This document shows, piece by piece, positions 2,189 through 34,421 of a stretch of 64,000 nucleotides of DNA. The DNA is taken from the IMG/VR virus record IMGVR_UViG_3300028833_000092, positions 1-64,000 of that record. The stretch is one strand, 5' to 3'. Both the position numbers and the translations under genes were made by a program. Within the stretch, counting starts at the first letter, position 1, and each line of letters begins with the position of its first letter. Below the pieces are notes generated by a model that worked only from the letters and a program-made list of their open reading frames with translations, was not told the DNA's origin and ran no database searches. The DNA is from a virus. Lineage: Duplodnaviria > Caudoviricetes.

Positions 2189-3208
2189 ATGGCAAATAGA
2201 ATAGAAAACGAATTAAAAATCGAACAACTTATTCTTAATAATTTAAAAGAACTTCCAGACTATGTTTCATCTTGGTATAGTAATCTTAAAGCATCTAGAA
2301 AAACAATGTCATCTTGCAATGATTTTGTAAATAAAATCAGAAATTATTTAAAAAGCATAAATACAGATACAAAAAATATAACAATTGATCAACTTACAAT
2401 TTCCTCAATTGAAAAGTATTTTATATCTATACAAACAAAAAAAGATAATGAGGGAAATATTGTATATACTTCAGATTCTTATCAACAAGGTATATGGTGT
2501 GCTTTAAATAACTTTTTTAAATATCTTTATTTGAGAAAACTGATTTCTGAAAATTATGTTGAATCAATTGCAAAACCTAAAAATCACGATTTGGAAAGAA
2601 TCAACGAACATAGAATTCGATTAACTCAAAAGGATTTTAATAAAATTCTTAAAGCTGTTGATTCTGGAACTGGAACAGATCGTTCAAAAAGTTATCAATC
2701 TAAATTTAAATCAAGAGATAAGGCAATCATATATCTTTTCATGACTACTGGAATGAGAAGAACAGCACTGACTGAAATTAGTCTTGAAGATTTAAATCTT
2801 AATGAAAAAGTTTTGTATGTTATAGATAAAGGAAATAAAAGACATACATATAGTTTAAATGAACCACTTGTTAACCTTTTAAATCAGTGGTTAAAGGATC
2901 GATATGATTTGTTCGGAGATAATATTAAAGGAAATTATCTGTTTGTTTCAAATCGTGGTCAAAAAATGGATTCATCTTCCGTATATTATTTGGTTGAAAA
3001 GTATTCAGAAGAAGGTTTAGGATATGGAATTAGTCCACATAAATTACGAGCCGGATTTTGTTCGATACTTTACGATAAGACAAAAGATGTTGAATTTGTA
3101 AGACGAGCAGTTGGTCATAGTAATATTGCAACAACACAGAGATATATTGTAACTGATAATAAGGAAAGACAAAAGGCTTCTGAAATAATGAGCGTTTTAT
3201 CAATTTAA
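2189..3208 (+). CDS. tyrosine recombinase / integrase (XerC/D-like)
   Basis: RDKAI..TGMRR, K(GNK), HKLR, VGHSNIATTQRY catalytic motifs. Confidence 0.95.
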   Translation: MANRIENELKIEQLILNNLKELPDYVSSWYSNLKASRKTMSSCNDFVNKIRNYLKSINTDTKNITIDQLTISSIEKYFISIQTKKDNEGNIVYTSDSYQQGIWCALNNFFKYLYLRKLISENYVESIAKPKNHDLERINEHRIRLTQKDFNKILKAVDSGTGTDRSKSYQSKFKSRDKAIIYLFMTTGMRRTALTEISLEDLNLNEKVLYVIDKGNKRHTYSLNEPLVNLLNQWLKDRYDLFGDNIKGNYLFVSNRGQKMDSSSVYYLVEKYSEEGLGYGISPHKLRAGFCSILYDKTKDVEFVRRAVGHSNIATTQRYIVTDNKERQKASEIMSVLSI

Positions 3209-11496: not shown

Positions 11497-12951
11497 ATGG
11501 ATTCAAAAATACCAGAGGAACTTATAAAAAACAGAAATGTTATAGAATGTAATTGGATTTTTTGTTTATTTAAAGACATAAATCTTGTAGGCGATTATAA
11601 GAATATTGTTAATACAGAAGATATTATTACTGATGATGGCATTTTTTATTATGGTTTAATTCAAGGACTTGCAAAAAATGGATATCAAGTTGCAGACAAC
11701 ATATCTATTCATGAATATTTAAGTAGCAAGAAAACATTAAATAAAAAGTTTGAAGAACTTGGTGGTTATTCAACAATAAAAGAAATAAGTGATCTTCTTT
11801 CTCTTAAAAATTTAGATACCTATTATGATGAATTGGTAAAAAATAATTTATTAATCAGATTATATAATGCTGGATTCAATGTATTAAAAGACTTAAATAA
11901 ACTTAATACTATGAGTTCTGAAGAAATTTATGATTATTATGATTATCAATTAAATAATATAAGTGTTGGTAAAATAGAAAAAATAAAAGTCGAAGATTTA
12001 TCTTCTGGTTATGATGAGTGGATTAAAAGAGCTGATTCTGCTACAAATATAGGTTATAGAGTAGGAAGTAAATTATTAGATTATCAACTTGCTGGAATTC
12101 ATAAAGGTTGTTTAACGTTATATCTTGGTGGTATAGGACAAGGAAAGAGTTCTTCTTCTGTTTCATTATTTATTCTTCCCGCGATAGAAGACGGTAATGA
12201 TATCACTATACTTTGCAACGAACAGACTGCTGACGAATATAGAAGTATGATTATATCCGCCGTATTGTTTGGTAAAATCGGTAACGTTAAAGGTATGAAT
12301 CGTATGTCAATCACGTTAGGTAATTTTGATGATTACAAAAGAGAAAAGTTACGTGAAGCAGCAGACTGGATTGAAAAACAACCCGGGAAAATACGTTTCG
12401 TTGAATTACAAAATTATGATATTGTAAATGTTAGAAAAATCATAAAACAACAATCTAAATTAGGATGTAGTTATTTCTTTTTTGATGTGTTAAAGAATGT
12501 AAATGATGCAAGTGATAAAGCGTGGGCAGAACTTTCTGACATTGCAAAAACATTATTTGTTTTAGCAAAGAATCAAAAAGTCGCAATCATTGCAAGTGCT
12601 CAGTTAGCATCTGATAGTATGAATCGTAAATATCTTGATTTATCTGCCGTAGGTAAATCTCGTGCTATTTCAGAATGTTGTGCTACAGTAATTGGATTTA
12701 GACCAATTATGAATAATGAAGTAGAAAAAATAAAACCGTGGAAATATAAGAAGAATCCAGACGGATCAGATGTAAAAATTAAAGAGATATATGATTTAAA
12801 TCCAGATAAACATTATATAATGCAATTTATAATGAAAAACAGATATGGTGATACTTCTACTCAGATAGTTCAAGAATTTGATCAATCATTTAATACTATA
12901 AAAGATATAGGATATTATAGAGCAAGTTATGATGATTTTAAAAGAAATTAA
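11497..12951 (+). CDS. DnaB-like replicative helicase
   Basis: GGIGQGKSS Walker A, NEQ, FFDVLK, ASAQL, KNRYG. Confidence 0.88.
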   Translation: MDSKIPEELIKNRNVIECNWIFCLFKDINLVGDYKNIVNTEDIITDDGIFYYGLIQGLAKNGYQVADNISIHEYLSSKKTLNKKFEELGGYSTIKEISDLLSLKNLDTYYDELVKNNLLIRLYNAGFNVLKDLNKLNTMSSEEIYDYYDYQLNNISVGKIEKIKVEDLSSGYDEWIKRADSATNIGYRVGSKLLDYQLAGIHKGCLTLYLGGIGQGKSSSSVSLFILPAIEDGNDITILCNEQTADEYRSMIISAVLFGKIGNVKGMNRMSITLGNFDDYKREKLREAADWIEKQPGKIRFVELQNYDIVNVRKIIKQQSKLGCSYFFFDVLKNVNDASDKAWAELSDIAKTLFVLAKNQKVAIIASAQLASDSMNRKYLDLSAVGKSRAISECCATVIGFRPIMNNEVEKIKPWKYKKNPDGSDVKIKEIYDLNPDKHYIMQFIMKNRYGDTSTQIVQEFDQSFNTIKDIGYYRASYDDFKRN

Positions 12952-12961
12952 AAAATAAGTA

Positions 12962-12990
12962 TTGACATTAATTAAATGTGGGAGTATATT
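12962..12990 (+). promoter_or_regulatory. sigma-A promoter driving repeat-RNA / tRNA-Asn / DUF2828 unit
   Basis: TTGACA-N17-TATATT. Confidence 0.75.
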
Positions 12991-13001
12991 ATATTTAAAG
13001 A

Positions 13002-13066
13002 AAGGTGCATACAGCAAACCAAGTTTAAATAACAATCGCCTGTTAAACGATCCAAAATGCACCTTG
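13002..13066 (+). ncRNA. TACAGCAA stem-loop RNA unit 1
   Basis: AAGGTGC-ATACAGCAA...GCACCTT-G; internal ATCG-C-CTGTTAA-A-CGAT hairpin. Confidence 0.7.
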
Positions 13067-13070
13067 TTCG

Positions 13071-13143
13071 GCTCTTGTAGTTCAGTTGGTAGAACGACTG
13101 ACTGTTAATCAGTAAGTCATAGGTTCGAGTCCTATCGAGAGCG
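13071..13143 (+). tRNA. tRNA-Asn(GTT)
   Basis: GCTCTTG/CGAGAGC acceptor, ACTGA-CTGTTAA-TCAGT, GTTCGAGTC; no encoded CCA. Confidence 0.95.
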
Positions 13144-13146
13144 TTT

Positions 13147-13219
13147 AAGACACATACAGCAATTTAAAATTATAACTGAAAATTTGCCTAATAATTTTTT
13201 TGTAAAATATGGTGTCTTG
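13147..13219 (+). ncRNA. TACAGCAA stem-loop RNA unit 2
   Basis: AAGACAC-ATACAGCAA...GTGTCTT-G. Confidence 0.7.
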
Positions 13220-13245
13220 ATTAAATAATATGATGATTTATAGAA

Positions 13246-13305
13246 AAAACAGGTACAGCAAAAATTTAAAATCGGGCTAATGTGAGCAGAGAAAAAACTG
13301 TTTTG
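13246..13305 (+). ncRNA. TACAGCAA stem-loop RNA unit 3
   Basis: AAAACAG-GTACAGCAA...CTGTTTT-G. Confidence 0.65.
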
Positions 13306-13349
13306 TAATATAAATTATCATATTTTTTTTATTTAAAAGGAGGATTAAA

Positions 13350-14864
13350 ATGAATTTTATTACGGCTTTTGACAATGAAACAAAAAAAGCAAAAACTCTT
13401 ACTGAAAATGGGGCAGTAGTTTATGAAACATCTGGAAGTAGTCTTCTTGATTTGAATTTTGCAACTTCAAGTATGAGAATGTGGTCGGAAGATAAAATAG
13501 TACATGCATTTGAAAAAGCATACTTTGAATGTCCTGTTTTAGCAGTAGTATGGCTTTTCTTTTTGCGTGACGTAAGAGGATGTGGAATGGGCGAAAGAAG
13601 ATCATTTAGAATATGTATGAAATGGTTATGCGATAATCGTCCAGATGATGCTAAAAAGATAATTTCTTTAATTCCAGAATATGGAAGATGGGATGATTTA
13701 ATATATCTTACAAATTCTAATTTGAAAAACAATATTATTAAAATAATTGATAATCAGTTAGAAAAAGATATGGATGATTGTATGAACAATAAACCAGTAT
13801 CTTTACTTGCTAAATGGTTGCCATCTATTAATGCTTCTTCATATAAAACTAAAAACCTTGCAAAGATAATTTGTAAAGAATTAGGAATTAAAGAAGTTCA
13901 GTATAGAAAAATTCTTTCTAAAATGAGAAAATACATTGATATTGTAGAAAGAAAAATGTCATCAAAAGACTGGAATGAAATTAATTATAATACAGTTCCG
14001 TCTGTTGCAAATTTAAAATATTCAAATGCATTTTTAAAAAATGATAATAATAGACGAAAAGAATATCTTGATAATTTAGCAAAAGGTAATCCTGAAACAA
14101 AAATAAATGCTAAAACATTGTTCCCATCAGATATTGTAGGACAATATAATTATCCTTGGTGTAATTATGATGAAACTAAAGAACAATTATGGAAAGCATT
14201 ACCTAATTTTGTTGAAGATGATTCAAATACTATAGTTGTAAGAGATGGTTCTGGATCAATGACTGTATCTATTCCGGGAACTAAAACACGATGCATTGAT
14301 GTTTCTACTGCATTAGCAATTTATTTTTCTGAAAGAAATAGTGGAGAATTTAAAAATAAGTTTATCACTTTTAGTAGTAATCCCAAAGTAGTTAATTTAG
14401 AAAATTGCAAATCTCTTTTTGAAAAACTTTCATTATGTAGAAAATATACTGATTGTACTAATACAAATATAGAAAAAGTTTTCGATATGATACTCGAAGC
14501 TGCTATAAATAATGAATTATCTCAAGAAGAATTACCTAAAAATATAATAATTGTTTCAGATATGGAATTTGATTCTATGTGTGAAGTTAATAATAACACT
14601 AAAACTATTTTCGAAAATATAAAGTATAGATATGAAGCACATGGGTATAAACTTCCTAAATTAATCTTCTGGAATGTTTTAAGTAGGACTAATGGAATTC
14701 CTTTAAGAGAAAATGAATTAGGAGTAGCGTTAGTAAGTGGATTTAGTCCCGCAATTTATAATATGGTTTTGTCAAATAAAACGAATCCATTTGATTGTTT
14801 AGTTGAGCAATTAAATAATGAGAGGTATAATCCTGTTTGGGAGGCTTTACTTCTAAATAAGTAA
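13350..14864 (+). CDS. DUF2828-family protein (helical domain + vWA/MIDAS)
   Basis: TENGA, RDVRG.G.GER, EYGRWDDL, AKWLPS, DGSGSM, SDMEFD, IFWN, VSGFS motifs. Confidence 0.88.
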   Translation: MNFITAFDNETKKAKTLTENGAVVYETSGSSLLDLNFATSSMRMWSEDKIVHAFEKAYFECPVLAVVWLFFLRDVRGCGMGERRSFRICMKWLCDNRPDDAKKIISLIPEYGRWDDLIYLTNSNLKNNIIKIIDNQLEKDMDDCMNNKPVSLLAKWLPSINASSYKTKNLAKIICKELGIKEVQYRKILSKMRKYIDIVERKMSSKDWNEINYNTVPSVANLKYSNAFLKNDNNRRKEYLDNLAKGNPETKINAKTLFPSDIVGQYNYPWCNYDETKEQLWKALPNFVEDDSNTIVVRDGSGSMTVSIPGTKTRCIDVSTALAIYFSERNSGEFKNKFITFSSNPKVVNLENCKSLFEKLSLCRKYTDCTNTNIEKVFDMILEAAINNELSQEELPKNIIIVSDMEFDSMCEVNNNTKTIFENIKYRYEAHGYKLPKLIFWNVLSRTNGIPLRENELGVALVSGFSPAIYNMVLSNKTNPFDCLVEQLNNERYNPVWEALLLNK

Positions 14865-22921: not shown

Positions 22922-22960
22922 TTCAATATAGACTTTTGATATTCAATATCAAGAGTTTGT

Positions 22961-23044
22961 GCACTCATGGTGGAATAGGCAGACACGAAGGACTTAAAAT
23001 CCTTTCCATATAAATGGGTGAGGGTTCGATTCCCTCTGAGTGCA
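22961..23044 (+). tRNA. tRNA-Leu(TAA)
   Basis: GCACTCA/TGAGTGC, AAGGA-CTTAAAA-TCCTT, long variable arm. Confidence 0.95.
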
Positions 23045-23046
23045 TT

Positions 23047-23118
23047 GTGGCTTTCGTATAAAGGCTAATACATCGGGTTGTGGTCTCGAAAATGTGGGTT
23101 CAATTCCCACAGGTCACC
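23047..23118 (+). tRNA. tRNA-His(GTG)
   Basis: GTGGCTT/AGGTCAC, TCGGG-TTGTGGT-CTCGA, C73. Confidence 0.88.
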
Positions 23119-23123
23119 TGAAT

Positions 23124-23211
23124 ACTTCGGTAGCAAAAAAGGTAATGCACATTTTAGTACTGAAATGGTTGGCTTGAAAACCATGTAGAGTTCAAATCTC
23201 TACCCGAAGTA
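23124..23211 (+). ncRNA. tRNA-like RNA with closed anticodon arm and 6-bp T-stem
   Basis: ACTTCGG/CCGAAGT, D-arm GCA..GGTAA-TGC, CATTTTA-GTAC-TGAAATG, GGTT/AACC, GTAGAG-TTCAAAT-CTCTAC. Confidence 0.7.
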
Positions 23212-23360
23212 GCGAAGTAGTTGACAGTCACTCAAATAAATGAATCTAAACGAATTACAAAAGTACAATGTTAGCGTGGTTCATAACTGTCCCCTATATA
23301 TGGAATGGAGAAATTCGGCATGTACGACATTGAGCATTTCGGCAGATTATATAGGGTTCC

Positions 23361-23431
23361 GGCTCCGTAGTCGAGTGGTAAGACATCGCCCTTTCACGGC
23401 GGTAACACGGGTTCGAATCCCGTCGGAGTCA
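23361..23431 (+). tRNA. tRNA-Glu(TTC)
   Basis: GGCTCCG/CGGAGTC, TCGCC-CTTTCAC-GGCGG. Confidence 0.95.
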
Positions 23432-23440
23432 CTTTTATTT

Positions 23441-23512
23441 TGGGCTATCGCCAAGCGGTAAGGCACAGGACTTTGACTCCTGCATTCGTTGGTTCGAATC
23501 CAACTAGCCCAG
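23441..23512 (+). tRNA. tRNA-Gln(TTG)
   Basis: TGGGCTA/TAGCCCA, CAGGA-CTTTGAC-TCCTG. Confidence 0.95.
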
Positions 23513-23539
23513 TTATCATTATTAATAAAGAGGTAGAAT

Positions 23540-23797
23540 ATGTTTGCAATTTATGTAAAAAATAAAAATAAATATTTTTGTAAAGAAAATAAGCCTATTG
23601 CTTTTGAATTATTTGAAGACGCTTATAATTTCGCAAATGGTTTTGCTAATTACGCTATTAATATTGCATTATCTGTTGTTTTTCAAGAAGGATTCGGTCT
23701 TTTAGAAGATGTTCAATCAACATTAAAAGAAATTGAAATTCAAGATTTTGATGATAAAAAAGATTTTTATCCTTTCGAAAAAATAAAAAATAGATAA
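23540..23797 (+). CDS. hypothetical protein
   Basis: GAGGT RBS, lies within tRNA cluster. Confidence 0.7.
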
Positions 23798-23803
23798 TAA
23801 TCA

Positions 23804-23876
23804 GCTCGCATAACTCAGTTGGTAGAGTAACAGACTTTTAATCTGTAAGTCGAGAGTTCAAGCCTCTCTGCGGGCA
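23804..23876 (+). tRNA. tRNA-Lys(TTT)
   Basis: GCTCGCA/TGCGGGC, ACAGA-CTTTTAA-TCTGT. Confidence 0.95.
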
Positions 23877-23890
23877 TCATAAAAAAGGTA

Positions 23891-23919
23891 TTGACTTTTT
23901 TTACATTTAATAGTATTGT
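23891..23919 (+). promoter_or_regulatory. sigma-A promoter upstream of tRNA-Pro
   Basis: TTGACT-N17-TATTGT. Confidence 0.55.
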
Positions 23920-23947
23920 TAATTTACCACTTAAATAGTTATTGTTT

Positions 23948-24021
23948 CGGAATATGGTGCAACTTGGTAGCATGCGTGATTTGGGATCACGAGGTTGTCG
24001 GTTCAAATCCGGCTATTCCGA
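23948..24021 (+). tRNA. tRNA-Pro(TGG)
   Basis: CGGAATA/TATTCCG, CGTGA-TTTGGGA-TCACG. Confidence 0.95.
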
Positions 24022-24165
24022 TGGATGGGACTTAACTAGTTCTTTCTTGGACATGTTTACTTACATTCTTTAAACGCACAACTTCTGGTGGAAATGTAAG
24101 TGTAGTTCTTAGGAGTGAAAAGTGTGGGGAACGACCTTCTTTCTAAAAAAATGAAAGGAAAAAAT

Positions 24166-26290: not shown

Positions 26291-26536
26291 ATGGTAAAAG
26301 TAAGATTGAATACCATATCTGATGTCCAAAATTTTTGTCGATTATCGAGTAGTTTATACGGTGATGTTGACATTGTTTCTGGAAAGTATATGGTAAACGG
26401 AAAATCGATTTTAGGATTATTTAGTCTTGATCTTTCTAATCCAGTCGAAGTAATTGTTCATGAAGTTGTTCCAAGTGAAGAAATTCAATTTGAATCACAA
26501 CTTAAAAATTTAGGTTTAGTTGTGGAGGATAATTGA
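26291..26536 (+). CDS. HPr-family phosphocarrier-like protein
   Basis: VNGKSILGLFSL (HPr Ser46 motif); no His15 motif. Confidence 0.8.
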   Translation: MVKVRLNTISDVQNFCRLSSSLYGDVDIVSGKYMVNGKSILGLFSLDLSNPVEVIVHEVVPSEEIQFESQLKNLGLVVEDN

Positions 26537-26538
26537 AT

Positions 26539-29500
26539 ATGAAAGTTGTTAAGCGTGATGGACGAGAGGTTATATTTAATAAAGATAAAATAATAAATGC
26601 TATAAGTGCTGCGTTTAAAAGCGTTTATAACAATGAAATAACAGATGAACAATTGACAAAAGCCAATGATATTGCCAACTATATCGAAGGATTGAATAAA
26701 GATATGACAGTAGAAGACATTCAAGATATAGTTGAAAATAAATTAATGGCAAGTTCATATAAGAAAGTTGCAAAAGAATACATACTTTATAGAAATGATC
26801 GTACTATAGAACGAGAAAAAAAGAGTAAATTATCTAAAGATATTACACGTAGACTTAAAGCAACAAATGTAGAAAATCAAAATGCTAATGTCGATGAAAA
26901 ATCTTTTGGTGGAAGACTTGGTTCAATTACAAGTGATGTAATGAAACATTATGCTCTATATAATTGTATGTCAAAAAAATCGAGAATGAATCATTTAAAT
27001 AATAGAATATACATTCACGATTTAGATCATTACGCAATTGGAGATCATAATTGTTTGACCATTCCTTTTGATGACTTACTTGCGAAAGGTTTTAATACAA
27101 GACAGACAGATGTTCGTCCGGCAAATAGTGTAAGTACCGCTTTTCAATTAGTTGCAGTTATTTTCCAGATACAAAGTTTACAACAATTTGGTGGTGTAAG
27201 TGCTGGACATATAGACTGGACAATGATTCCTTATGTAAGAAAAAGTTTTTATAAACATTATAAAAATGGATGTAAATATATAAAAGGAATAGAAGAACTT
27301 GATTATAGTTTTACTCCAGATTTATCTATAGAAGAAGAAGATTATAAAATTTATTGTCCAGAAGCATATCAATATGCTATGGATATGACACAAAAAGAAA
27401 TTAAACAAGCGTGTGAAGGTATGTTTCATAACCTTAATTATTAGGGCGGCTTAACAGTAATGTTAAGAACATAGTTATCTAAACGGTGAAACTCTTTTAT
27501 AAAGACAATACCGTGCTAAATTATATTATCGTTAAAAATGAATTATACAGTTTATAGACACATAAATAAATTAAATAACAAACAATATATTGGAATAACC
27601 AAACAAAATCCACCATCTCATCGTTGGGGAAGTAATGGAGCAAATTATAAACAAAGTCCTCATTTTTGGAATGCTATTCAAAAATATGGATGGGATAATT
27701 TTGAGCATGAAATATTATTTATTAATTTATCAAAGGAAGAAGCGTGTAAAATAGAAAAAGAATTAATAAGCAAATATAAAACTCAAGATAAAAATTTTGG
27801 ATATAATTCTTTTGAAGGTGGAGACGCTCCTGAAATTCCACAAGAAGTAAGAGATAAGATGTCCAAATCTATGATGGGAAATAAAAATGGTTTAGGAAAA
27901 ATATGTTCTGAAGAAAAGAAGAAAAAAATAAGTGATGCGCAAAGAGGAAAAATACTTACTGAAGAACATAAACAAGCAATTTCAAAAGCAAAAAAAGGAA
28001 AAACACATAAACCATTAAGTAATGAAAGTAGAAAAAAGATATCAGATGCTCATATAAAAAATCCAGTATATTGTTTTGAAACAAATATAATATATGAATC
28101 AATTCAAGAGTGTTCAAGACAATTAAATGTTCCAGCTACAACAATTTGTAAAATATGTAAAAATAAATTGAAAAGTATACACGGATATCACTTTAAATAT
28201 TTTAACGATAATATATAAATGCCTAACGACTATTCCTATAAAACGGGAAGTAGAGTCAAGCGACTCGAAATGATAACCCCCTTTTTATTAAAGGGTGAAG
28301 ATATAGTCTAATCTTTATGGTGACATAAAGAAGTTCATAAGAGAACTGCATAAGCATAGCGAACTTATGTGAATAAAAATGTAATACATTACAATCACGC
28401 AGCGGTAATCAATTGCCTTTTTCTTCAATAAATACTGGTACTTGTACTTTAAAAGAAGGAAGAATGATTACAAAGGGATTACTTGAAGGTTGTTTAAGTG
28501 GTGTTGGTAAATTTCATAAAACAAGCATATTCCCTTGTTTAATCTTTCAATATATGAAAGGTGTAAATGATAAACCAGAAACACCCAATTATGATTTATA
28601 TCAACTTGCATTAAAATCAACTGCTCAGAGATTATATCCAAATTATGCAAACGTAAATTGGAGTGGAAATGCTGGATTCGATCCAAATGATCCTAAAACA
28701 TATTTTGTTACTATGGGTTGGTAATATGGCTCATATAAAACTTCGTGAACTTACAAATGTAGGGTGTCAGATTAACGAATAGTAATTGTAGGAAATGACA
28801 ACTAATAATCTGGCTAACAGGGAACGCTTATAAAGAAAATCCTGTGCTAAGACTTATAACTAAATAAATACCTTTTACGTGAGGTGTTTATGAAAGAATA
28901 TGATGGTTTTTTAGTAGATGATGATTTAAATATTTATAGTTCAAGAACTAAAAATAAATTAACGAGACATATGGGAAGTGATGGATATGAACAAGTTATG
29001 TATCGTGATAAAAATAATAAACTTCATCATCAACGAGTACATGTAATATTAGCAAATTGTTTTATAGACAATCCTAATAATTATAAGTACATAAATCATA
29101 AAGATAATAATAAAATGAATAATTCTTTAGATAATTTAGAATGGTGTACTAATTCTTACAATGTTTTTCAAAGTTGGCATGATGGCAGTTTTAGGCACAA
29201 ACGGTCAACTAAATTAAAAGTAGAAGATTTAAAACATAATCATATTGGAAATTATAAATCAATAAGAGAATGTGGAAAATCATTACATTTAGATAGACAT
29301 AAAATTGCAAGAGTATTAAAAGGTGAGTTAAAAGAAGATTATTTAGGTTATTTATTTAGTTATATTTAAAGTCAAACGACTATCGAAAACATAACATAAG
29401 AGAAAGACTTATGTAAAGAAGTGAGTAGAGTACATATAATGTGAAATTCATTATATGGAAGTGCGAAGCATTTATTATTTGGTAAAAGAGTAATAAATGA

Positions 29501-32289
29501 AGATATAGTCTAAATCCTCTTTTATAAGAGGTTTTGTGTAGAACTGCAAATGGATGGGATATAAATGGTTTCGGTCAACTTAAAGATGGGCGTGGAAATA
29601 TTTGTCCAGTAACCATAATTCTTCCAACAATAGCAATGGATGCTAAAGAAGAACTTGATAATGAAATAAAAGGAAGTTTCGTTCCTCAATCAGTTGAATG
29701 GTATCAAAATCAACATACTAAAAAGTTTTTGAAAATACTTGATAAAGCAATTGATGATGCGAAAGATATGCTTATTGAGAGATTTGAATATATATGTTCA
29801 CAATCTCCAGAAGCCGCAACATTTATGTATGAGAATAATGTTATGGCAGGATATGTTCCAGAAGAAGGAATACGAAGTGCTCTTAAACATGGAACACTTG
29901 CAGTTGGTCAATTAGGTCTTGCAGAATGTTTGCAAATTTTAATTCATTGTGATCATACTTCAAAAGAAGGTATGGAATTAGCCAAAAAAATAGAAAGTCT
30001 TTTTAAAGAAAAATGTGCAAAATTTAAAGAGGAATATAAATTAAATTTTGGCGTTTATTACACCCCTAAATGTAAAAGGTTAACATCTGTGGGGGCTTCT
30101 ATAGCGATATAGAATGATAAATCCGGCTAACTCAGGGGAAGTTCTTATGAATAATCCTGAACTAAATTAATAATTGTAAGGTAATAAATATGTATATTGA
30201 CAAAATACCAGATACGGCAAAACAAATTAAAAATTCTTTTGATTTTATTGATATAGACGGTAAAGTATATGGTATAGAAAATAGAAACAACAACAAACAT
30301 AAAGGACAACCATTTATAAAAACATTACATACAATATATGGTTATAAATATTGTGGAATAAGATATAAAAATGGTAAAGTTATATCGAAAAGAGTTCATA
30401 GACTTGTAGCTGAAGCATTTATTCCCAATCCTAATAATTATCCGATTGTAATGCATAAAGATAATAATAAAAAAAATAATCATATATCAAATTTAAAATG
30501 GGGAACAGTTTCAAATAATACACAACAAGCTGTTGATGATAAATTATTAGTAAATAAAAAAGGTTTTGAAGATAATCAATCTATTCCTTGTGAATGTTAT
30601 GATTCCTTAACCAATAAACACATTGGAACTTTTGGATCAATTTCAATTGCTTCACAAGAAATGAATATAACAAAGGGTGGAATATTATATCAGATTAATA
30701 ATCCAGATAAACCTATTAGAAAATCTTTTTATTTTACTAAATATGGAGAATCTCCTAAAAAACATGATATAATTTGTCAATATGATTTTAATACCGATAA
30801 AGAAATTAACCGTTTTATTTCAATTGGTAAAGCAAGTGAAATAACTAAAATAAGTCAAAATACTATATCTGAACAAATTAAAAATGGTTCAAAACCTAAA
30901 TGGTCAAAAACTAATACTTATTTTTTAAAATTACAATTATTATAAATGTGCAGAGACTATCGAAAACAATATAGTGAGTAGAGTAGCGAATAGCGAAAGA
31001 CCGGACTCTTTCAGTGCGAAAGATGAAAATATAGTCCAAAACAAAAGGCAGAAAACCTATGTTTCACTGCAATGACGAAGTTTAAAGAAAAGTATGGTGA
31101 AATACCAAATGTTTCCGATAAGAAATTTTTTACAAATTCAATACATGTTCCAGTATGGATCGAAATGAGTCCAATGGAAAAAATAGATATTGAATCACAA
31201 TTAACTGGGTATTCGAGTGCTGGATGCATCACATATGTTGAACTTGATGGAACAGTAAAACATAATTTAAAGGCTCTTGAATCAATTGTTAATTATGCTA
31301 TGGAAAAAGATATTCCTTATTTTGCAATTAATGTTCCAAATGATACTTGTCTTGATTGTGGATATTGTGATGAAATGAATGATACTTGTCCTCAATGTGG
31401 TGGACATAGAATTCAAAGATTAAGACGAGTTACAGGGTTATCTGAATAATTGCTAGGAAATGCCCTTCAATTGTCGTAAAACTATATAATAATAGTGTTT
31501 CATTAGCCAGAATCCTAATAAGGATCATAAGTAAAATAATAACTAATGAGGTATCAAGAGATGAATAAAAATAATTCAAACCTTGAGTTTAGAAAAATAA
31601 AATCATTAAAATTTTTATATGAAGTGAATGAAAACGGAACAATATTTAGAAATGTGAAATCTAAAAAACAATTAAAAATAAAATTAGATTTACATCATTC
31701 AAAAACTGGTTACTATACAACATTTATACATATGGGTGGTCGTTCTCAAAATAGTAGAACTATAAGAGTTCCTATACATCGTGTTGTTGCAGAATGTTGG
31801 TTGGGTGATATTCCAGAAGGTATGGAAGTAGACCATATAGACAGAAATACTCATAATAATGATTATCGAAATTTAAGATATGTCACAAAAAGTGAACAGA
31901 TGAAAAATCGTGATCATTCGAATATTTCTAAAACTGGTGCAAAAAATTTAGAAAAAGCCAGACAAGAAAGGTCAAAATCAGTAATAATAAAAAATGAATT
32001 AGAAGAAATTAAATTCAATTCATATGCAGATTGTTCCAGATATTTAGCAGAAAAATTTAGTAAAACATTTGAACATATAAGACATAAACTAAAAAATCAT
32101 CGTTCATATATTTATGGTTATGAAATTATTTATTCTAAATGCAGAGACTAAACACGACAGCTCTACGGAGCAAGAAATAGTCCACAGTTATGTGATTTAA
32201 CTGGCAATTATACAACTGCATTTAACGAAGGAAAGATACAAGAAGTTGAAATGCGTGTAAAGCATCAATCATTTTCGGGGAGATTTTAA
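26539..32289 (+). CDS. nrdD: anaerobic ribonucleoside-triphosphate reductase, 5 exons: 26539-27434, 28382-28718, 29537-30067, 31048-31438, 32195-32289 (749 aa)
   Basis: ATP cone (VVKRDG), HDLD, HNC; spliced junctions restore HNLNTLQSRSGNQ, TMGCRT, YTPAENLC, RRVTGYL; exons sum to 2250 nt. Confidence 0.93.
27435..28381 (+). mobile_element. group I intron 1 in nrdD
   Basis: P1 CCU|UAA..UUAGGG with U.G at splice site; GACUA/AUAGUC P7; terminal G. Confidence 0.88.
27538..28218 (+). CDS. GIY-YIG homing endonuclease with NUMOD3 repeats
   Basis: TVYRHIN..QYIGIT, RW, GYN; repeated SEEKKKKIS-type motifs. Confidence 0.9.
   Translation: MNYTVYRHINKLNNKQYIGITKQNPPSHRWGSNGANYKQSPHFWNAIQKYGWDNFEHEILFINLSKEEACKIEKELISKYKTQDKNFGYNSFEGGDAPEIPQEVRDKMSKSMMGNKNGLGKICSEEKKKKISDAQRGKILTEEHKQAISKAKKGKTHKPLSNESRKKISDAHIKNPVYCFETNIIYESIQECSRQLNVPATTICKICKNKLKSIHGYHFKYFNDNI
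28719..29536 (+). mobile_element. group I intron 2 in nrdD
   Basis: P1 AUGGGU|..GCUCAU; GACUA/AUAGUC; terminal G before TGT(Cys). Confidence 0.88.
28890..29369 (+). CDS. HNH homing endonuclease
   Basis: RVH..F, INHKDNNKMNNSLDNLEWCT..N. Confidence 0.9.
   Translation: MKEYDGFLVDDDLNIYSSRTKNKLTRHMGSDGYEQVMYRDKNNKLHHQRVHVILANCFIDNPNNYKYINHKDNNKMNNSLDNLEWCTNSYNVFQSWHDGSFRHKRSTKLKVEDLKHNHIGNYKSIRECGKSLHLDRHKIARVLKGELKEDYLGYLFSYI
30068..31047 (+). mobile_element. group I intron 3 in nrdD
   Basis: P1 CCCCU|..GGGGG; GACUA/AUAGUC; terminal G before GCA GAA. Confidence 0.88.
30190..30945 (+). CDS. HNH homing endonuclease with NUMOD1-like repeats
   Basis: VHRLVAEAFIPNP, MHKDNNKKNNHISNLKW; FGSISIAS / FISIGKAS. 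Confidence 0.9.
   Translation: MYIDKIPDTAKQIKNSFDFIDIDGKVYGIENRNNNKHKGQPFIKTLHTIYGYKYCGIRYKNGKVISKRVHRLVAEAFIPNPNNYPIVMHKDNNKKNNHISNLKWGTVSNNTQQAVDDKLLVNKKGFEDNQSIPCECYDSLTNKHIGTFGSISIASQEMNITKGGILYQINNPDKPIRKSFYFTKYGESPKKHDIICQYDFNTDKEINRFISIGKASEITKISQNTISEQIKNGSKPKWSKTNTYFLKLQLL
31439..32194 (+). mobile_element. group I intron 4 in nrdD
   Basis: P1 AGGGU|..GCCCU; GACUA/AUAGUC; terminal G; splits the Tyr codon after the glycyl-radical Gly. Confidence 0.85.
31546..32151 (+). CDS. HNH homing endonuclease
   Basis: IHRVVAECW, VDHIDRNTHNNDYRNLRYV. Confidence 0.9.
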   Translation: MRYQEMNKNNSNLEFRKIKSLKFLYEVNENGTIFRNVKSKKQLKIKLDLHHSKTGYYTTFIHMGGRSQNSRTIRVPIHRVVAECWLGDIPEGMEVDHIDRNTHNNDYRNLRYVTKSEQMKNRDHSNISKTGAKNLEKARQERSKSVIIKNELEEIKFNSYADCSRYLAEKFSKTFEHIRHKLKNHRSYIYGYEIIYSKCRD

Positions 32290-33224: not shown

Positions 33225-34421
33225 ATGTTAAATAAAAATGGTATTCGTGAATTAGCATATGTAGTAAAAATTGATGATATTCAACCTATTATCGGTTCAG
33301 ATAATTGCGAAGCCGCAATCGTTGGTGGGTGGAAAGTAATGGTTCGTAAAGAAACATTTAAGCCCGGAGATTTAGCTGTTTATTTTGAAATTGATTCAAA
33401 GGTTCCTGAAACTGAGGTATTTGAATTTCTTGCAAAAAAACATTATAAAATTAAAACACAAAAATATACTTTTGGTGGAGCAAATAAAGAAGGATTTTAT
33501 TCTCAAGGATTATTAATGCATTTTAATGATTTTGGATGGGAAAAGGATGCTCATAAAGAAGGTGATTTTCTTACCGAAGAATTAGGTGTAACTTATGCTG
33601 AACCAGAAGATAATAAAAGAAAATCATCTGGAAGTGATAAATATAAAAAGATGGCGGCAAGACATCCTAAGTTATTCCAGAATCCTATAATTAAAAAAAT
33701 ATATAAGAATAAAACTGGCAAGAAAATTTTATTTTTCTTTTTTGGCAAAAAACAAGATAAATTAGATTTTCCTTCTTGGGTAATTAAAACCGATGAAGAA
33801 AGAATTCAGAATTTACAACATATGATTCCAGAATTTTGTAAAGAAAAATGGATTGCTACCGAAAAAATTGATGGAACATCGACCACTTTTACTCTTCATA
33901 AGAGAGGTCATAAAAAATTCGAATATGCAGTTTGCAGTAGAAACGTAAGAATGACTGAATTTAAAAATGGTGGTTATTACGAAAATAATGTATATACAGA
34001 AATGTCAACTAAATACAATATGAAAAATGTTCTTCTCGATATGCTTAATAGAGCACCCAAATGTGATTATGTGACTATTCAAGGTGAAACATATGGTGAA
34101 GGAATTCAAAAACGTAACTATAATACAAAAGAACATAATTTAGTTGTTTTCAATGTAATTTTCGGCAAAGATGATGGATTAACTTTAAGATTAAATCCTT
34201 TAAAAATGAAAGAACTTATGGATTGTTATAATATTCCTACAGTTCCAATTATAGCTGAAGATGTTGAACTTCCAGAGACTTGCGATGAAATACTTGTTAT
34301 GGCTCATGGTAAATCTCAATTTGATGATGATTTAAGAGAAGGAATTGTATTTAGAAACTATGATGCTACAAAATCATTTAAAGCAGTAGATAATGAATTC
34401 TTATTAAAATATCATGGATAA
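33225..34421 (+). CDS. ATP-dependent RNA ligase (DRB0094/Rnl5-like, N-terminal OB domain)
   Basis: VYFEIDS, SQGL, KTDEERIQN, EKIDGTS (motif I), CSRN, QGE, EGIVF, SFKA. Confidence 0.88.
   Translation: MLNKNGIRELAYVVKIDDIQPIIGSDNCEAAIVGGWKVMVRKETFKPGDLAVYFEIDSKVPETEVFEFLAKKHYKIKTQKYTFGGANKEGFYSQGLLMHFNDFGWEKDAHKEGDFLTEELGVTYAEPEDNKRKSSGSDKYKKMAARHPKLFQNPIIKKIYKNKTGKKILFFFFGKKQDKLDFPSWVIKTDEERIQNLQHMIPEFCKEKWIATEKIDGTSTTFTLHKRGHKKFEYAVCSRNVRMTEFKNGGYYENNVYTEMSTKYNMKNVLLDMLNRAPKCDYVTIQGETYGEGIQKRNYNTKEHNLVVFNVIFGKDDGLTLRLNPLKMKELMDCYNIPTVPIIAEDVELPETCDEILVMAHGKSQFDDDLREGIVFRNYDATKSFKAVDNEFLLKYHG

What the first reader, a model, noticed from the sequence alone, without database searches (positions are those of the whole stretch)
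12962..14864. Array of covarying TACAGCAA stem-loop RNAs plus tRNA-Asn ahead of a Ro60-like DUF2828 gene
Seen: one promoter, then three 60-73 nt units with one grammar: 7-bp stem / RTACAGCAA / AT-rich variable loop containing TTTAAA / complementary stem / G. The stems differ in sequence yet pair perfectly (AAGGTGC:GCACCTT, AAGACAC:GTGTCTT, AAAACAG:CTGTTTT), so the covariation is visible within this one genome. A real tRNA-Asn sits between units 1 and 2. A 7-bp stem plus one 3' base copies acceptor-stem/discriminator geometry. The downstream protein has a helical domain plus vWA/MIDAS. Established: Ro60/Rsr has that architecture and binds Y RNAs that are often encoded next to it. Inference: DUF2828 and these RNAs form an uncharacterised ribonucleoprotein, with TACAGCAA as binding site and the loop as variable cargo; alternatively they are autoregulatory operators.
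Basis: partly seen in the sequence, partly recalled or inferred. Interest (0 to 1): 0.88.

Follow-up and report, generated by a model that had tools for sequence, protein, structure and literature searches.

The report
Phage Ro60-like protein with partner RNAs
A phage gene for a ring protein that folds like the RNA-surveillance protein Ro60 is preceded by three small RNAs sharing one conserved "handle"; this pairing recurs in thousands of phages, the RNAs appear undescribed, and one relative of the protein was recently shown to defeat a bacterial anti-phage defence.

Summary
Downstream of one strong promoter (12962-12990) lie three 60-73 nt units (13002-13066, 13147-13219, 13246-13305). Each has a 7-bp terminal stem, one base, TACAGCAA, an A/U-rich interior, the complementary strand and a G. 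A genuine tRNA-Asn sits between units 1 and 2. The DUF2828/DUF7788 gene follows with no terminator in between.

The AlphaFold2 model of the protein matches full-length Ro60 (Z 18.2 over 420 residues).

The RNA-protein link holds in both directions:
- All 80 IMG/VR loci with the gene have units on the gene's strand (271 versus 7 on the opposite strand).
- 25 of 28 virus records found through the RNA carry the gene.
- In 151 genomes of one bacterial order, all 6 with the RNA have the gene (p = 6e-9).

The shared "handle" is a 7-bp helix, two bases, then (A)CAGCAA. It closes the small RNAs, or sits as a hairpin in the anticodon region of tRNA bodies. Many small units carry an anticodon-stem-loop mimic.

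Recurrent neighbours are RNA ligases and Thg1-like genes. A Felixounavirus homologue, Bas63 gp130, is a published counter of the Ppl defence, and I found four units beside it.

Best reading: a Y-RNA-like particle acting in counter-defence or tRNA damage control. Binding is untested.

This scan has flagged the same system on other DNA in at least 20 genomes.

The parts
12962..12990 (+). sigma-70-type promoter (TTGACA, 17 nt, TATATT), the likely start of the RNA-plus-gene transcript
   Evidence: It is the best match in the region, 11 of 12. The syntenic relative L204 has a TTGACA/TATAAT pair at the same place. The assignment rests on consensus only.
13002..13066 (+). Unit 1. Handle AAGGTGC / A / TACAGCAA closed by GCACCTT + G. 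The interior holds an anticodon-arm-like hairpin with loop CTGTTAA (GTT, Asn-like) and a C-A mismatch at the loop-closing pair.
   Evidence: Sequence. Model R1 scores 36.5 bits, E 1.5e-8; this unit was in the model's training set. Fold z = -2.66.
13071..13143 (+). Canonical tRNA-Asn (GTT), with no encoded CCA and no insert
   Evidence: ARAGORN. Rfam tRNA 75.4 bits.
13147..13219 (+). Unit 2. Handle AAGACAC / A / TACAGCAA closed by GTGTCTT + G, with an A/U-rich interior
   Evidence: Model R1 scores 50.7 bits, E 4.8e-13; this unit was in the model's training set. It is the only unit with an Rfam hit: RF01414 Dictyostelium Class I RNA at 20.0 bits, E 0.37, gathering score 41.5.
13246..13305 (+). 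Unit 3. Handle AAAACAG / G / TACAGCAA closed by CTGTTTT + G
   Evidence: Model R1 scores 36.4 bits; this unit was in the model's training set. The orthologous unit in L204 has AAGACAG/CTGTCTT, a compensatory change at one pair.
13336..13343 (+). Shine-Dalgarno sequence AAAGGAGG, 6 nt before the ATG
   Evidence: Read directly from the sequence.
13350..14864 (+). Ro60-like ring protein of 504 aa: DUF2828 helical domain plus DUF7788 vWA domain, with MIDAS motif DGSGS at residues 299-303
   Evidence: Pfam. Invariant MIDAS residues. AlphaFold2 model with pLDDT 82 and pTM 0.82. Foldseek's top 13 hits are all Ro60/TROVE. VIA-align gives Z 18.2 over 420 aligned residues to Xenopus Ro60.
33225..34421 (+). 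RNA ligase (PHA02142 OB-fold plus RNA_ligase), a possible functional partner 18 kb away
   Evidence: Pfam E 1.9e-20 and 9.1e-20. The same architecture lies directly downstream of DUF2828 in 19 of 160 related loci. The link in this genome is inferred from context only.

Best explanation
U1-U3 are small stable RNAs made from one transcript together with tRNA-Asn and the DUF2828 mRNA.

Each RNA carries a constant handle: a 7-bp helix, two bases, then single-stranded (A)CAGCAA. I infer that this handle is the docking site for the Ro60-like ring protein encoded next door, so that RNA and protein form a Y-RNA-like particle.

The variable interior is cargo. Across the family it is often a piece of tRNA: an anticodon-stem-loop mimic, a T arm, or a whole tRNA body when the handle is inserted as a hairpin. 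The cargo would present tRNA-like surfaces to enzymes that act on tRNA, either as an adaptor or as a decoy.

The particle most likely acts early in infection, in counter-defence or control of RNA/tRNA damage.

Shown here: the elements, their conservation and covariation, two-way genomic linkage, the Ro60-like predicted fold, and the RNA-repair neighbourhood.

Shown by others: a homologue counters the Ppl defence.

Inferred: binding through the handle, processing into separate RNAs, and the role of the cargo.
For: 1. Forward link. In 80 IMG/VR loci there are 271 closed units on the gene's strand, 7 on the other strand and about 9 in shuffles. All 80 loci have at least one. Units peak within 250 nt upstream of the start codon and just after the stop. 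In 80 loci from bacterial assemblies the counts are 111 versus 8.

2. Reverse link. Loci were found by the pattern AAGACACNNACAGCAA. 25 of 28 records with a closed unit carry DUF2828. Among chance 'open' matches the figures are 1 of 48 held fragments and 1 of 5 whole records (p about 2e-15). In 151 genomes of one order the RNA is in 6 and all 6 have the gene; none has the RNA without the gene (p 5.6e-9). A complete genome with two DUF2828 genes has units beside each.

3. Covariation. All 7 stem pairs show double changes. The optional anticodon-like helix is 72% paired with double changes at 5 of 5 pairs. CAGCAA is invariant. The relative at 60% protein identity keeps the order promoter, U1, tRNA, U2, U3, gene, with different stems.

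4. Ro60 fold. Foldseek E 3.8e-10 to 1e-5 for 13 Ro60/TROVE chains. VIA-align Z 13-18 over about 400-420 residues. The next hits match the vWA domain only, at Z 11.2 or less.

5. tRNA-like cargo. 59 of 155 small units have an anticodon-arm mimic, against a mean of 9.7 and a maximum of 20 in shuffles. 287 of 348 over-long tRNA calls contain RCWGCAA, against 13 of 338 normal tRNAs. In 179 of 223 unique cases a 5-8 bp hairpin, typically 7 bp with a GNNA loop, ends 0-2 nt before the motif. This parallels the tRNA-like module of YrlA Y RNAs (PMC4201824).

6. Context. Recurrent neighbours are RNA ligase, a Thg1-like gene and Band_7. A tRNA splicing ligase and an RNA ligase lie near the gene in Listeria phage WIL-1. 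An RNA ligase is present in this window.

7. Function of a homologue. Bas63 gp130 is a counter of the Ppl defence and was described as Ro60-like. I confirmed it belongs to this family (E 1.7e-104) and found four units beside it.
Against: - No binding, expression or processing data exist for these RNAs.
- Bas63 gp130 alone, from a plasmid or inserted into T7, restored T7 growth on the Ppl host. At least that activity therefore does not need the phage's own handle RNAs, unless host RNAs substitute.
- 3 of 9 DUF2828-positive genomes in the order sample had no model hit. 19 of 80 genome loci had no closed unit within 3 kb. This may reflect variant handles or strict search filters.
- The RNAs do not match the Rfam Y RNA or YrlA models.
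- The protein does not hit Pfam TROVE at E <= 0.01.
- Single-sequence folding z-scores are weak for U2 and U3.
- The stem pairing in alignment A2 is perfect by construction, because the detector required it.
Confidence: 0.6

Rival explanations
1. The units are tRNA-part decoys or sponges that act without DUF2828, for example against anticodon nucleases or tRNA-modifying enzymes. They sit near the gene only because both belong to the phage's tRNA and RNA-repair module.
For: - Units lie inside tRNA arrays.
- Many carry anticodon-arm mimics. UUU (Lys-type) is the commonest at 17, followed by UGG at 9 and UGA at 9.
- gp130 works without them in T7.
Against: - The second tRNA array in this window has no unit, while the DUF2828 leader has three.
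- In a complete bacterial genome the units track both DUF2828 copies.
- No genome in the 151-genome sample had the RNA without the gene.
- A constant CAGCAA handle next to a 7-bp helix, kept across very different cargos, points to a common binding partner.
Confidence: 0.17
2. The units are cis-acting leader elements: operators through which the DUF2828 protein controls its own mRNA, or processing and stability signals of that mRNA.
For: 105 of 271 units lie within 250 nt upstream of the start codon on the same strand. Here there is no terminator between the units and the gene.
Against: - Units also lie just after the stop codon (24 in the 250-nt bin after the gene) and in tRNA arrays.
- In complete virus records some units lie in fragments that do not hold the gene.
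- There are several copies per gene, each with different cargo.
- The hairpin form of the handle sits inside tRNA bodies.
- A dual role, as stable RNA and as feedback site, is not excluded.
Confidence: 0.12
3. The handle is a short protein-dependent intron or mobile insertion of tRNA genes. It is removed with the help of the DUF2828 protein and the neighbouring RNA ligase. The free-standing units are derivatives.
For: RNA ligase genes are frequent neighbours.
Against: - After the best possible excision only 58 of 182 give a canonical anticodon arm, against 194 of 239 plain tRNAs (p 6e-25).
- The insertion site is heterogeneous.
- Some inserts lie between the D arm and an intact anticodon arm.
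- This window has only free-standing units and a normal tRNA.
Confidence: 0.04
4. The units are decaying tRNA pseudogenes or chance hairpins with no function.
For: They lie among tRNAs. Folding z-scores for U2 and U3 are weak.
Against: - CAGCAA is invariant and stems show compensatory changes across phages of Firmicutes, Proteobacteria and Actinobacteria and in a giant-virus fragment.
- The strand bias is 271 to 7.
Confidence: 0.02

Closest known systems
Ro60 (Rsr, TROVE + vWA) with Y RNAs, especially bacterial and phage YrlA/YrlB (Chen et al. 2014, PMC4201824; Rfam RF02553)
   Same: - The protein is predicted to have the same two-domain ring plus vWA fold.
- The partner RNA candidates are encoded beside the gene.
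- The RNAs are closed by a stem joining the 5' and 3' ends.
- They combine a constant part with a tRNA-like module.
- One YrlA has a 7-bp acceptor-like stem that RNase P cleaves.
- There is an RNA-repair gene context.
   Different: - No sequence-level match to Pfam TROVE.
- The conserved RNA element is helix + NN + (A)CAGCAA, not the Y RNA helix or the GNCGAA motif of YrlA.
- No Rfam Y RNA or YrlA hit in the window. Only 25-28 bit hits (gathering score 69) on tRNA-like parts in relatives.
- The RNAs are shorter, at 55-75 nt.
- In the tRNA-body form the RNA ends lie in the acceptor stem and the handle is in the anticodon region. From my recollection of YrlA, not checked here, that is the reverse of its topology.
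Bas63 (Escherichia phage JohannRWettstein) gp130, a counter of the Ppl defence (PhageMaP preprint, 10.1101/2024.10.10.617714)
   Same: It belongs to the same protein family (A1 profile E 1.7e-104; about 34% identity between the window protein and Felixounavirus homologues). The gene lies directly beside tRNAs. The authors noted the Ro60 fold and guessed at Y-RNA-like partners among the tRNA genes.
   Different: The paper did not identify the RNAs. I found four handle units in the tRNA-array gaps after g130, two of them under annotated mini-ORFs. In the window the units precede the gene. Whether the window protein counters any defence is untested.
Dictyostelium Class I RNAs (Rfam RF01414; Kjellin et al. 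2021, PMC7919456)
   Same: - Total length of about 60 nt.
- A short stem joining the 5' and 3' ends.
- A conserved motif directly after the 5' strand that contains the same UACAGCAA.
- A variable A/U-rich interior.
- U/G after the 3' strand.
   Different: - The score is far below the family threshold: 20.0 versus 41.5 bits. No hit at all was found in 65 kb of related loci.
- The spacing between stem and ACAGCAA differs by one base.
- Class I RNAs are eukaryotic, with their own DUSE promoter.
- The known binder is the RRM protein Rnp1A. The other pull-down proteins are GuaB, NdkC and DDB_G0281243.
- I could not test whether dictyostelids have a DUF2828 protein.
Phage tRNA gene clusters and aberrant or armless tRNAs
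   Same: The units sit in tRNA operons. They have a 7-bp terminal stem plus one 3' base, and many have an anticodon-arm mimic at roughly tRNA-like spacing.
   Different: The free-standing units do not match the tRNA model. They lack D arms, and most lack T arms.

Membership tests
Ro60/TROVE-Y RNA ribonucleoprotein | Protein is a helical-repeat ring (TROVE) followed by a vWA domain with a MIDAS site | tested here: met
   AlphaFold2 model with pLDDT 82. Foldseek's top 13 hits are all Ro60/TROVE, E 3.8e-10 to 1.1e-5. VIA-align gives Z 18.2, rmsd 4.8 A over 420 residues to 1yvr; the next fold class is vWA only, at Z 11.2 or less. DGSGS at 299-303 is invariant. This is similarity of a predicted model, not a solved structure.
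Ro60/TROVE-Y RNA ribonucleoprotein | Sequence membership in Pfam TROVE (PF05731) | tested here: not met
   hmmscan at E <= 0.01 lists only DUF7788, DUF2828 and VWA_2. A profile search of PDB sequences finds no Ro60.
Ro60/TROVE-Y RNA ribonucleoprotein | Partner RNA matches the Y RNA / YrlA families | tested here: not met
   No Y_RNA or YrlA hit at E <= 10 in 12900-13400. In relatives there are only 25-28 bit YrlA hits (gathering score 69), and these overlap tRNA-like parts.
Ro60/TROVE-Y RNA ribonucleoprotein | Small RNA genes encoded beside the protein gene and co-inherited with it | tested here: met
Ro60/TROVE-Y RNA ribonucleoprotein | Protein physically binds the RNA | not testable with these tools
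   Needs RIP/CLIP or EMSA.
Dictyostelium Class I RNA (RF01414) | Score at or above Rfam's gathering threshold | tested here: not met
   U2 scores 20.0 bits against 41.5. U1 and U3 are not reported. No hit at E <= 1 in ten related loci.
Dictyostelium Class I RNA (RF01414) | Short terminal stem, then the conserved 11-nt motif CCUUACAGCAA, then a variable interior; total about 42-65 nt | tested here: inconclusive
   The stem, the position of the motif, UACAGCAA (8 of the 11 bases) and a length of 60-73 nt all agree. The first three motif bases and the spacing do not agree.
Dictyostelium Class I RNA (RF01414) | Dictyostelid origin with a DUSE promoter; binds Rnp1A | not testable with these tools
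   The window is a phage record. No eukaryotic genomes are searchable here.
tRNA (RF00005) | Cloverleaf matching the tRNA model | tested here: not met
   This applies to U1-U3: only 13071-13143 matches. The tRNA-Asn itself meets it, at 75.4 bits.
Pfam DUF2828 + DUF7788 protein family | Scores above the curated cut-offs of both models | tested here: met
   124.1 bits (cut-off 29) and 156.1 bits (cut-off 27.1). More than 7,800 homologues at E <= 0.001.
Ppl counter-defence proteins (Bas63 gp130 type) | Homology to gp130 | tested here: met
   bas63_0130 matches the A1 profile at E 1.7e-104. The window protein is about 34% identical to Felixounavirus homologues over 95% of its length.
Ppl counter-defence proteins (Bas63 gp130 type) | Counters the Ppl defence in vivo | not testable with these tools
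   Reported for gp130 only.

The most novel reading that the evidence does not exclude
The handle RNAs and the Dictyostelium Class I RNAs are the same kind of molecule. Under this reading, helix + UACAGCAA is the docking site of DUF2828-type Ro60-like proteins across viruses and eukaryotes. The family also occurs in mimivirus-like and plant proteins, and units occur in a giant-virus fragment. The long-unexplained Class I RNAs would then be partner RNAs of a Ro60-like particle, possibly acquired through giant viruses. In phages the particle would be a modular display of tRNA parts that disarms RNA- or tRNA-directed host defences.
Probability: 0.15. Interest if true: 0.92.

Novelty: new variant of a known kind. 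Interest (0 to 1): 0.8.

Why it matters
Ro60-Y RNA particles are a classic but still poorly understood RNA-surveillance system.

This finding points to a second, much larger viral branch. There are more than 7,800 protein clusters and 711 cultured-phage records, including phages of E. coli, Salmonella, Listeria, Mycobacterium, Staphylococcus and Campylobacter. Its partner RNAs have a simple, recognisable handle and swappable tRNA-like cargo.

One member of the protein family already has a phenotype: it counters the Ppl defence. The RNAs can therefore be tested directly in E. coli K-12 with phage Bas63.

The finding also has practical consequences for annotation:
- It explains many odd over-long "tRNA" calls.
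- It explains spurious mini-ORFs in phage annotations.
- It offers the first testable lead on the Dictyostelium Class I RNAs.

Tried and rejected
- **Close relatives in IMG/VR by single-protein patterns:** none found. A profile of 28 homologues was needed.
- **Rfam:** no family at gathering thresholds except tRNAs. Relaxed scans gave only the weak Class I hit and weak YrlA or tmRNA hits on tRNA-like parts of relatives.
- **PDB by sequence profile:** nothing relevant.
- **Fused or long forms, as a route to named eukaryotic homologues:** only two long fusions turned up, one with a RecQ helicase and one with an NrdD piece. No eukaryote was listed.
- **Dictyostelium link:** Avesson 2011 is not held. 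The supplements of Kjellin 2021 contain none of the searched terms DDB_G0281243, DUF2828, vWA or GuaB. No paper other than the preprint names DDB_G0281243. Whether dictyostelids have a DUF2828 protein remains open.
- **Literature:** searches for DUF2828, UACAGCAA/TACAGCAA, ROT/TROVE and tRNA-like decoys found no description of the RNAs.
- **Thg1 and Band_7 in the window's own record:** absent, although the record is only 67% complete.
- **Second tRNA array (22960-24022):** no handle units.
- **Intron reading:** tested and found weak.
Full report
**What is in the window.**

After the stop of a DnaB-like helicase gene (11497-12951) comes the best sigma-70-like promoter of the region: TTGACA, 17 nt, TATATT at 12962-12990. 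Three units of one design follow:
- U1, 13002-13066: AAGGTGC, A, TACAGCAA, 41-nt interior, GCACCTT, G.
- U2, 13147-13219: AAGACAC, A, TACAGCAA, 49-nt interior, GTGTCTT, G.
- U3, 13246-13305: AAAACAG, G, TACAGCAA, 36-nt interior, CTGTTTT, G.

A canonical tRNA-Asn(GTT) lies at 13071-13143. A Shine-Dalgarno sequence and the 504-codon ORF 13350-14864 follow. No terminator-like site lies in between.

The ORF matches Pfam DUF7788 (E 1.1e-45) and DUF2828 (E 8.7e-36), with a weak vWA match.

The window is the replication and nucleotide-metabolism module of a phage. It encodes an AAA_24 ATPase, a helicase, a Toprim primase, a PD-(D/E)XK nuclease, Pol III alpha, NrdD, dUTPase and an RNA ligase. It has a second array of six tRNAs. 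The record is an IMG/VR virus of 118,920 nt, estimated 67% complete.

**Is it more than chance?** Within the window alone the evidence is thin. Three TACAGCAA sites are not unusual by count, and single-sequence folding is unremarkable for U2 and U3. The case rests on comparison.

The protein has more than 7,800 homologues. I aligned 28 of them (A1) and fetched 80 IMG/VR loci. I then applied a simple detector requiring a 7-nt strand, N, N[AG]CAGCAA, up to 170 nt, and a perfect 7-bp complement. Results:
- 271 units on the gene's strand, 7 on the other strand, and 4-16 in shuffled loci.
- At least one unit in all 80 loci.
- Peaks just upstream of the start codon (105 in the last 250 nt) and just after the stop (24).
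- G follows the 3' strand in 165 of 188 unique units.

In 80 loci from bacterial genome assemblies the counts are 111 versus 8.

An alignment of 84 non-redundant units shows CAGCAA invariant and the preceding A in at least 90%. Double (compensatory) changes occur at all seven stem pairs. The stem is perfectly paired by construction, so the informative controls are the strand and shuffle counts.

The covariance model R1 built from this alignment finds exactly three sites in the whole virus record, which are the three units. Those three units were part of the alignment, so their scores partly follow from that. The useful result is that nothing else matches.

The closest relative in the genome collection is L204, at 60% protein identity, on a 125-kb contig binned with an Absconditabacterales MAG. 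It keeps the order promoter, U1, tRNA, U2, U3, gene, with different stem sequences, including a compensatory change in U3.

**The reverse test.** I scanned IMG/VR for AAGACACNNACAGCAA and split the 80 loci by whether the stem closes.
- Of 32 loci with closed units, 14 had a DUF2828 gene in the held fragment.
- Of 48 unclosed, chance-like matches, 1 had the gene.
- I searched the whole records of 14 further closed-unit loci. 11 had the gene, including 10 of 11 records at least 90% complete.
- Of 5 control records, 1 had the gene.

In a sample of 151 genomes of one bacterial order, R1 hits at E <= 1e-5 occur in 6 genomes. All 6 have the gene. Nine genomes have the gene, and none has the RNA without it (Fisher p 5.6e-9). 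One complete genome has two DUF2828 genes, each with units beside it.

**The protein.** An AlphaFold2 model from A1 has mean pLDDT 82 and pTM 0.82.

Foldseek against the PDB puts 13 Ro60/TROVE chains first. These include the Thermus phage phiLo Ro60, Xenopus and human Ro60, and Deinococcus Rsr (E 3.8e-10 to 1.1e-5). Isolated vWA domains come next. VIA-align gives Z 18.2 (rmsd 4.8 A, 420 residues) to Xenopus Ro60 and Z 13-18 for all ten Ro60 entries. vWA-only matches score 11.2 or less.

The MIDAS motif DGSGS is invariant. The protein does not hit Pfam TROVE or Ro60 by sequence profile. It is therefore Ro60-like in its predicted fold, but not a recognised TROVE member by sequence.

GenBank annotators already call some homologues "Ro-like RNA binding protein" or "RNA-binding protein".

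First, 59 of 155 small units hold a 4-5 bp stem with a 7-nt loop of anticodon-loop form (Y-U-NNN-R-N). It lies 9-13 nt after CAGCAA and 7-12 nt before the 3' strand. Shuffled interiors give a mean of 9.7 and a maximum of 20. The "anticodons" are diverse, with UUU the commonest. In the alignment this helix is 72% paired with double changes at all five pairs. In the window, U1 has such a hairpin with loop CTGTTAA, the same anticodon as the neighbouring tRNA-Asn. U2 and U3 do not have one.

Second, 33 of 188 units include a T-arm motif.

Third, the related loci are full of tRNA bodies of 100-135 nt.
- 287 of 348 such ARAGORN calls contain RCWGCAA, against 13 of 338 normal tRNAs.
- In 179 of 223 unique cases a hairpin ends 0-2 nt before the motif, typically 7 bp with a GNNA loop.
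- Rfam's tRNA model scores these at 38-54 bits over 115-130 nt.

The constant module is therefore a 7-bp helix, two bases and single-stranded (A)CAGCAA. It can be formed by the RNA's own ends, with the cargo inside. It can also be closed by a tetraloop and inserted in the anticodon region of a tRNA body, with the cargo outside. Locally the two forms have the same geometry.

The intron alternative is weak. After the best possible excision only 58 of 182 yield a canonical anticodon arm, against 194 of 239 plain tRNAs, and the insertion site varies.

**Context and function.** I clustered the ORFs around the gene in the 160 related loci. Recurrent neighbours are:
- Band_7/SPFH, in 28 loci.
- RNA ligase with a PHA02142 OB-fold, directly downstream in 19 loci, plus a second ligase type in 9.
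- A Thg1-like gene, in 17 loci.
- A class-V aminotransferase, in 15 loci.

Listeria phage WIL-1 has a tRNA splicing ligase, a NADAR protein and an RNA ligase within 6 kb. The window has the same RNA ligase architecture at 33225-34421. Its record has no Thg1 or Band_7 gene.

The family is present in 711 cultured-phage records. R1 finds units beside the gene in Listeria phage WIL-1, Mycobacterium phage LeBron and Escherichia phage Andreotti.

The PhageMaP preprint (10.1101/2024.10.10.617714) reports the following about gp130 of the Felixounavirus Bas63:
- It resembles Ro60.
- It lies directly upstream of the tRNA stretch.
- It counters the Ppl defence.
- It does so even when expressed alone for phage T7.

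The authors guessed that some of the annotated tRNAs might be Y RNAs.

I confirmed that bas63_0130 is a member of this protein family (E 1.7e-104). I also found four handle units in the gaps of the tRNA array after it. Two of them lie under annotated minus-strand mini-ORFs. The partner RNAs are therefore not tRNAs but a separate family that the paper did not see.

**Most likely mechanism.** The promoter at 12962 drives one transcript. I infer that tRNA-processing enzymes and other RNases release tRNA-Asn and the three units and leave the DUF2828 mRNA.

I infer that the ring protein binds the helix + CAGCAA handle, by analogy with Ro60 and Y RNA and from the strict co-inheritance.

The cargo would then place tRNA-like surfaces on the particle. 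It could recruit tRNA-directed enzymes, as Y RNA tethers PNPase to Rsr, or it could divert them. Either role would serve counter-defence or RNA repair.

I put 0.6 on the particle reading as a whole. I put about 0.4 to 0.5 on the counter-defence or tRNA-damage role. The main evidence against an obligatory RNA partner is that gp130 alone rescued T7.

**Comparison with Class I RNAs.** The only non-tRNA Rfam hit in the region is RF01414, Dictyostelium Class I RNA: U2, 20.0 bits, E 0.37, against a gathering score of 41.5.

The published description is a short stem joining the ends, an 11-nt motif directly after the 5' strand, a variable interior and a length of about 60 nt. The Rfam consensus shows that motif as CCUUACAGCAA. 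The phage units match this grammar and share UACAGCAA.

Formally, membership is not met, and ten related loci give no hit at E <= 1.

The proteins pulled down with a Class I RNA were Rnp1A, GuaB, NdkC and the uncharacterised DDB_G0281243. I could not determine whether the last of these, or any dictyostelid protein, is a DUF2828 member.

DUF2828 does occur in mimivirus-like and plant proteins, and handle units occur in a giant-virus fragment. I keep this as the novel case at 0.15.

**Novelty and standing.** The Ro60-Y RNA kind is known. The Ro60-like fold of this protein family has been noted in annotations and in one preprint, and one member has a phenotype. I found the handle RNAs in no paper or RNA catalogue.

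I rate this a new variant of a known kind, with interest 0.8.

The same system has been flagged by this scan in at least 20 other genomes, with follow-ups reaching similar readings. Those notes stated that no publication existed. The gp130 preprint qualifies that for the protein.

Noticed in passing
window 26533-32151: The anaerobic ribonucleotide reductase gene nrdD is in pieces. Profile positions 2-147 lie at 26533-27444 and positions 264-414 at 29534-30112. The pieces are interleaved with a GIY-YIG and three HNH homing-endonuclease ORFs. This looks like a gene invaded by several endonuclease-bearing introns or inteins.
   Followed up: no
window 23124-23211: There is a tRNA-like element that neither ARAGORN nor Rfam calls. 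It has acceptor strands ACTTCGG/CCGAAGT, a T arm with TTCAAAT, a D-arm-like stretch, an extra segment of about 16 nt, and an 8-nt anticodon-type loop. It has no CAGCAA handle. It lies in the 242-nt gap of the second tRNA array.
   Followed up: partly
window 2189-3208: A tyrosine integrase (Phage_integrase, E 9.8e-32) lies in a phage that otherwise looks like a large lytic-type genome with its own Pol III alpha and tRNAs.
   Followed up: no
L001 280-405: This is a tRNA body with an intact anticodon arm of loop CTCTAAA (anticodon CUA, amber-suppressor type). It carries the hairpin handle (7-bp stem, GGAA loop, CT, AACAGCAA) between the D arm and the anticodon arm. The 5' strand of the anticodon stem (TCAGA) is duplicated on both sides of the insert, which allows two alternative pairings.
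   Followed up: partly
L286 5665-5808 (Listeria phage WIL-1) and L290 3195-3408 (Bas63): Handle RNAs lie under annotated mini-ORFs: PI27_gp032/gp033 and bas63_0137/0138. These CDS calls are probably spurious.
   Followed up: partly
L069 342-453: A drum RNA (Rfam RF02958, 59.1 bits against a gathering score of 43) lies upstream in a DUF2828 locus, among tRNAs. A weak HDV-like ribozyme hit is at L069 4363-4420.
   Followed up: no
P0122 and P0121: Fused forms of the protein exist. One is 1148 aa and combines DUF2828/DUF7788 with a RecQ-type helicase (DEAD, Helicase_C, HRDC). The other is 954 aa and includes an NrdD piece.
   Followed up: no
L204 2700-2825: In the closest syntenic relative, the tRNA between U1 and U2 is not a plain tRNA-Asn. 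It is a tRNA body with a hairpin insert (6-bp stem, GAAA loop) followed by a variant core, ACTGCAA.
   Followed up: partly
L088 (giant-virus MAG fragment): Three near-identical units (AAGACAC, T, AACAGCAA ... GTGTCTT, G) alternate with tRNA genes in a repeated cassette. No DUF2828 gene is in the 11.3 kb held, and the rest of the record could not be searched.
   Followed up: partly
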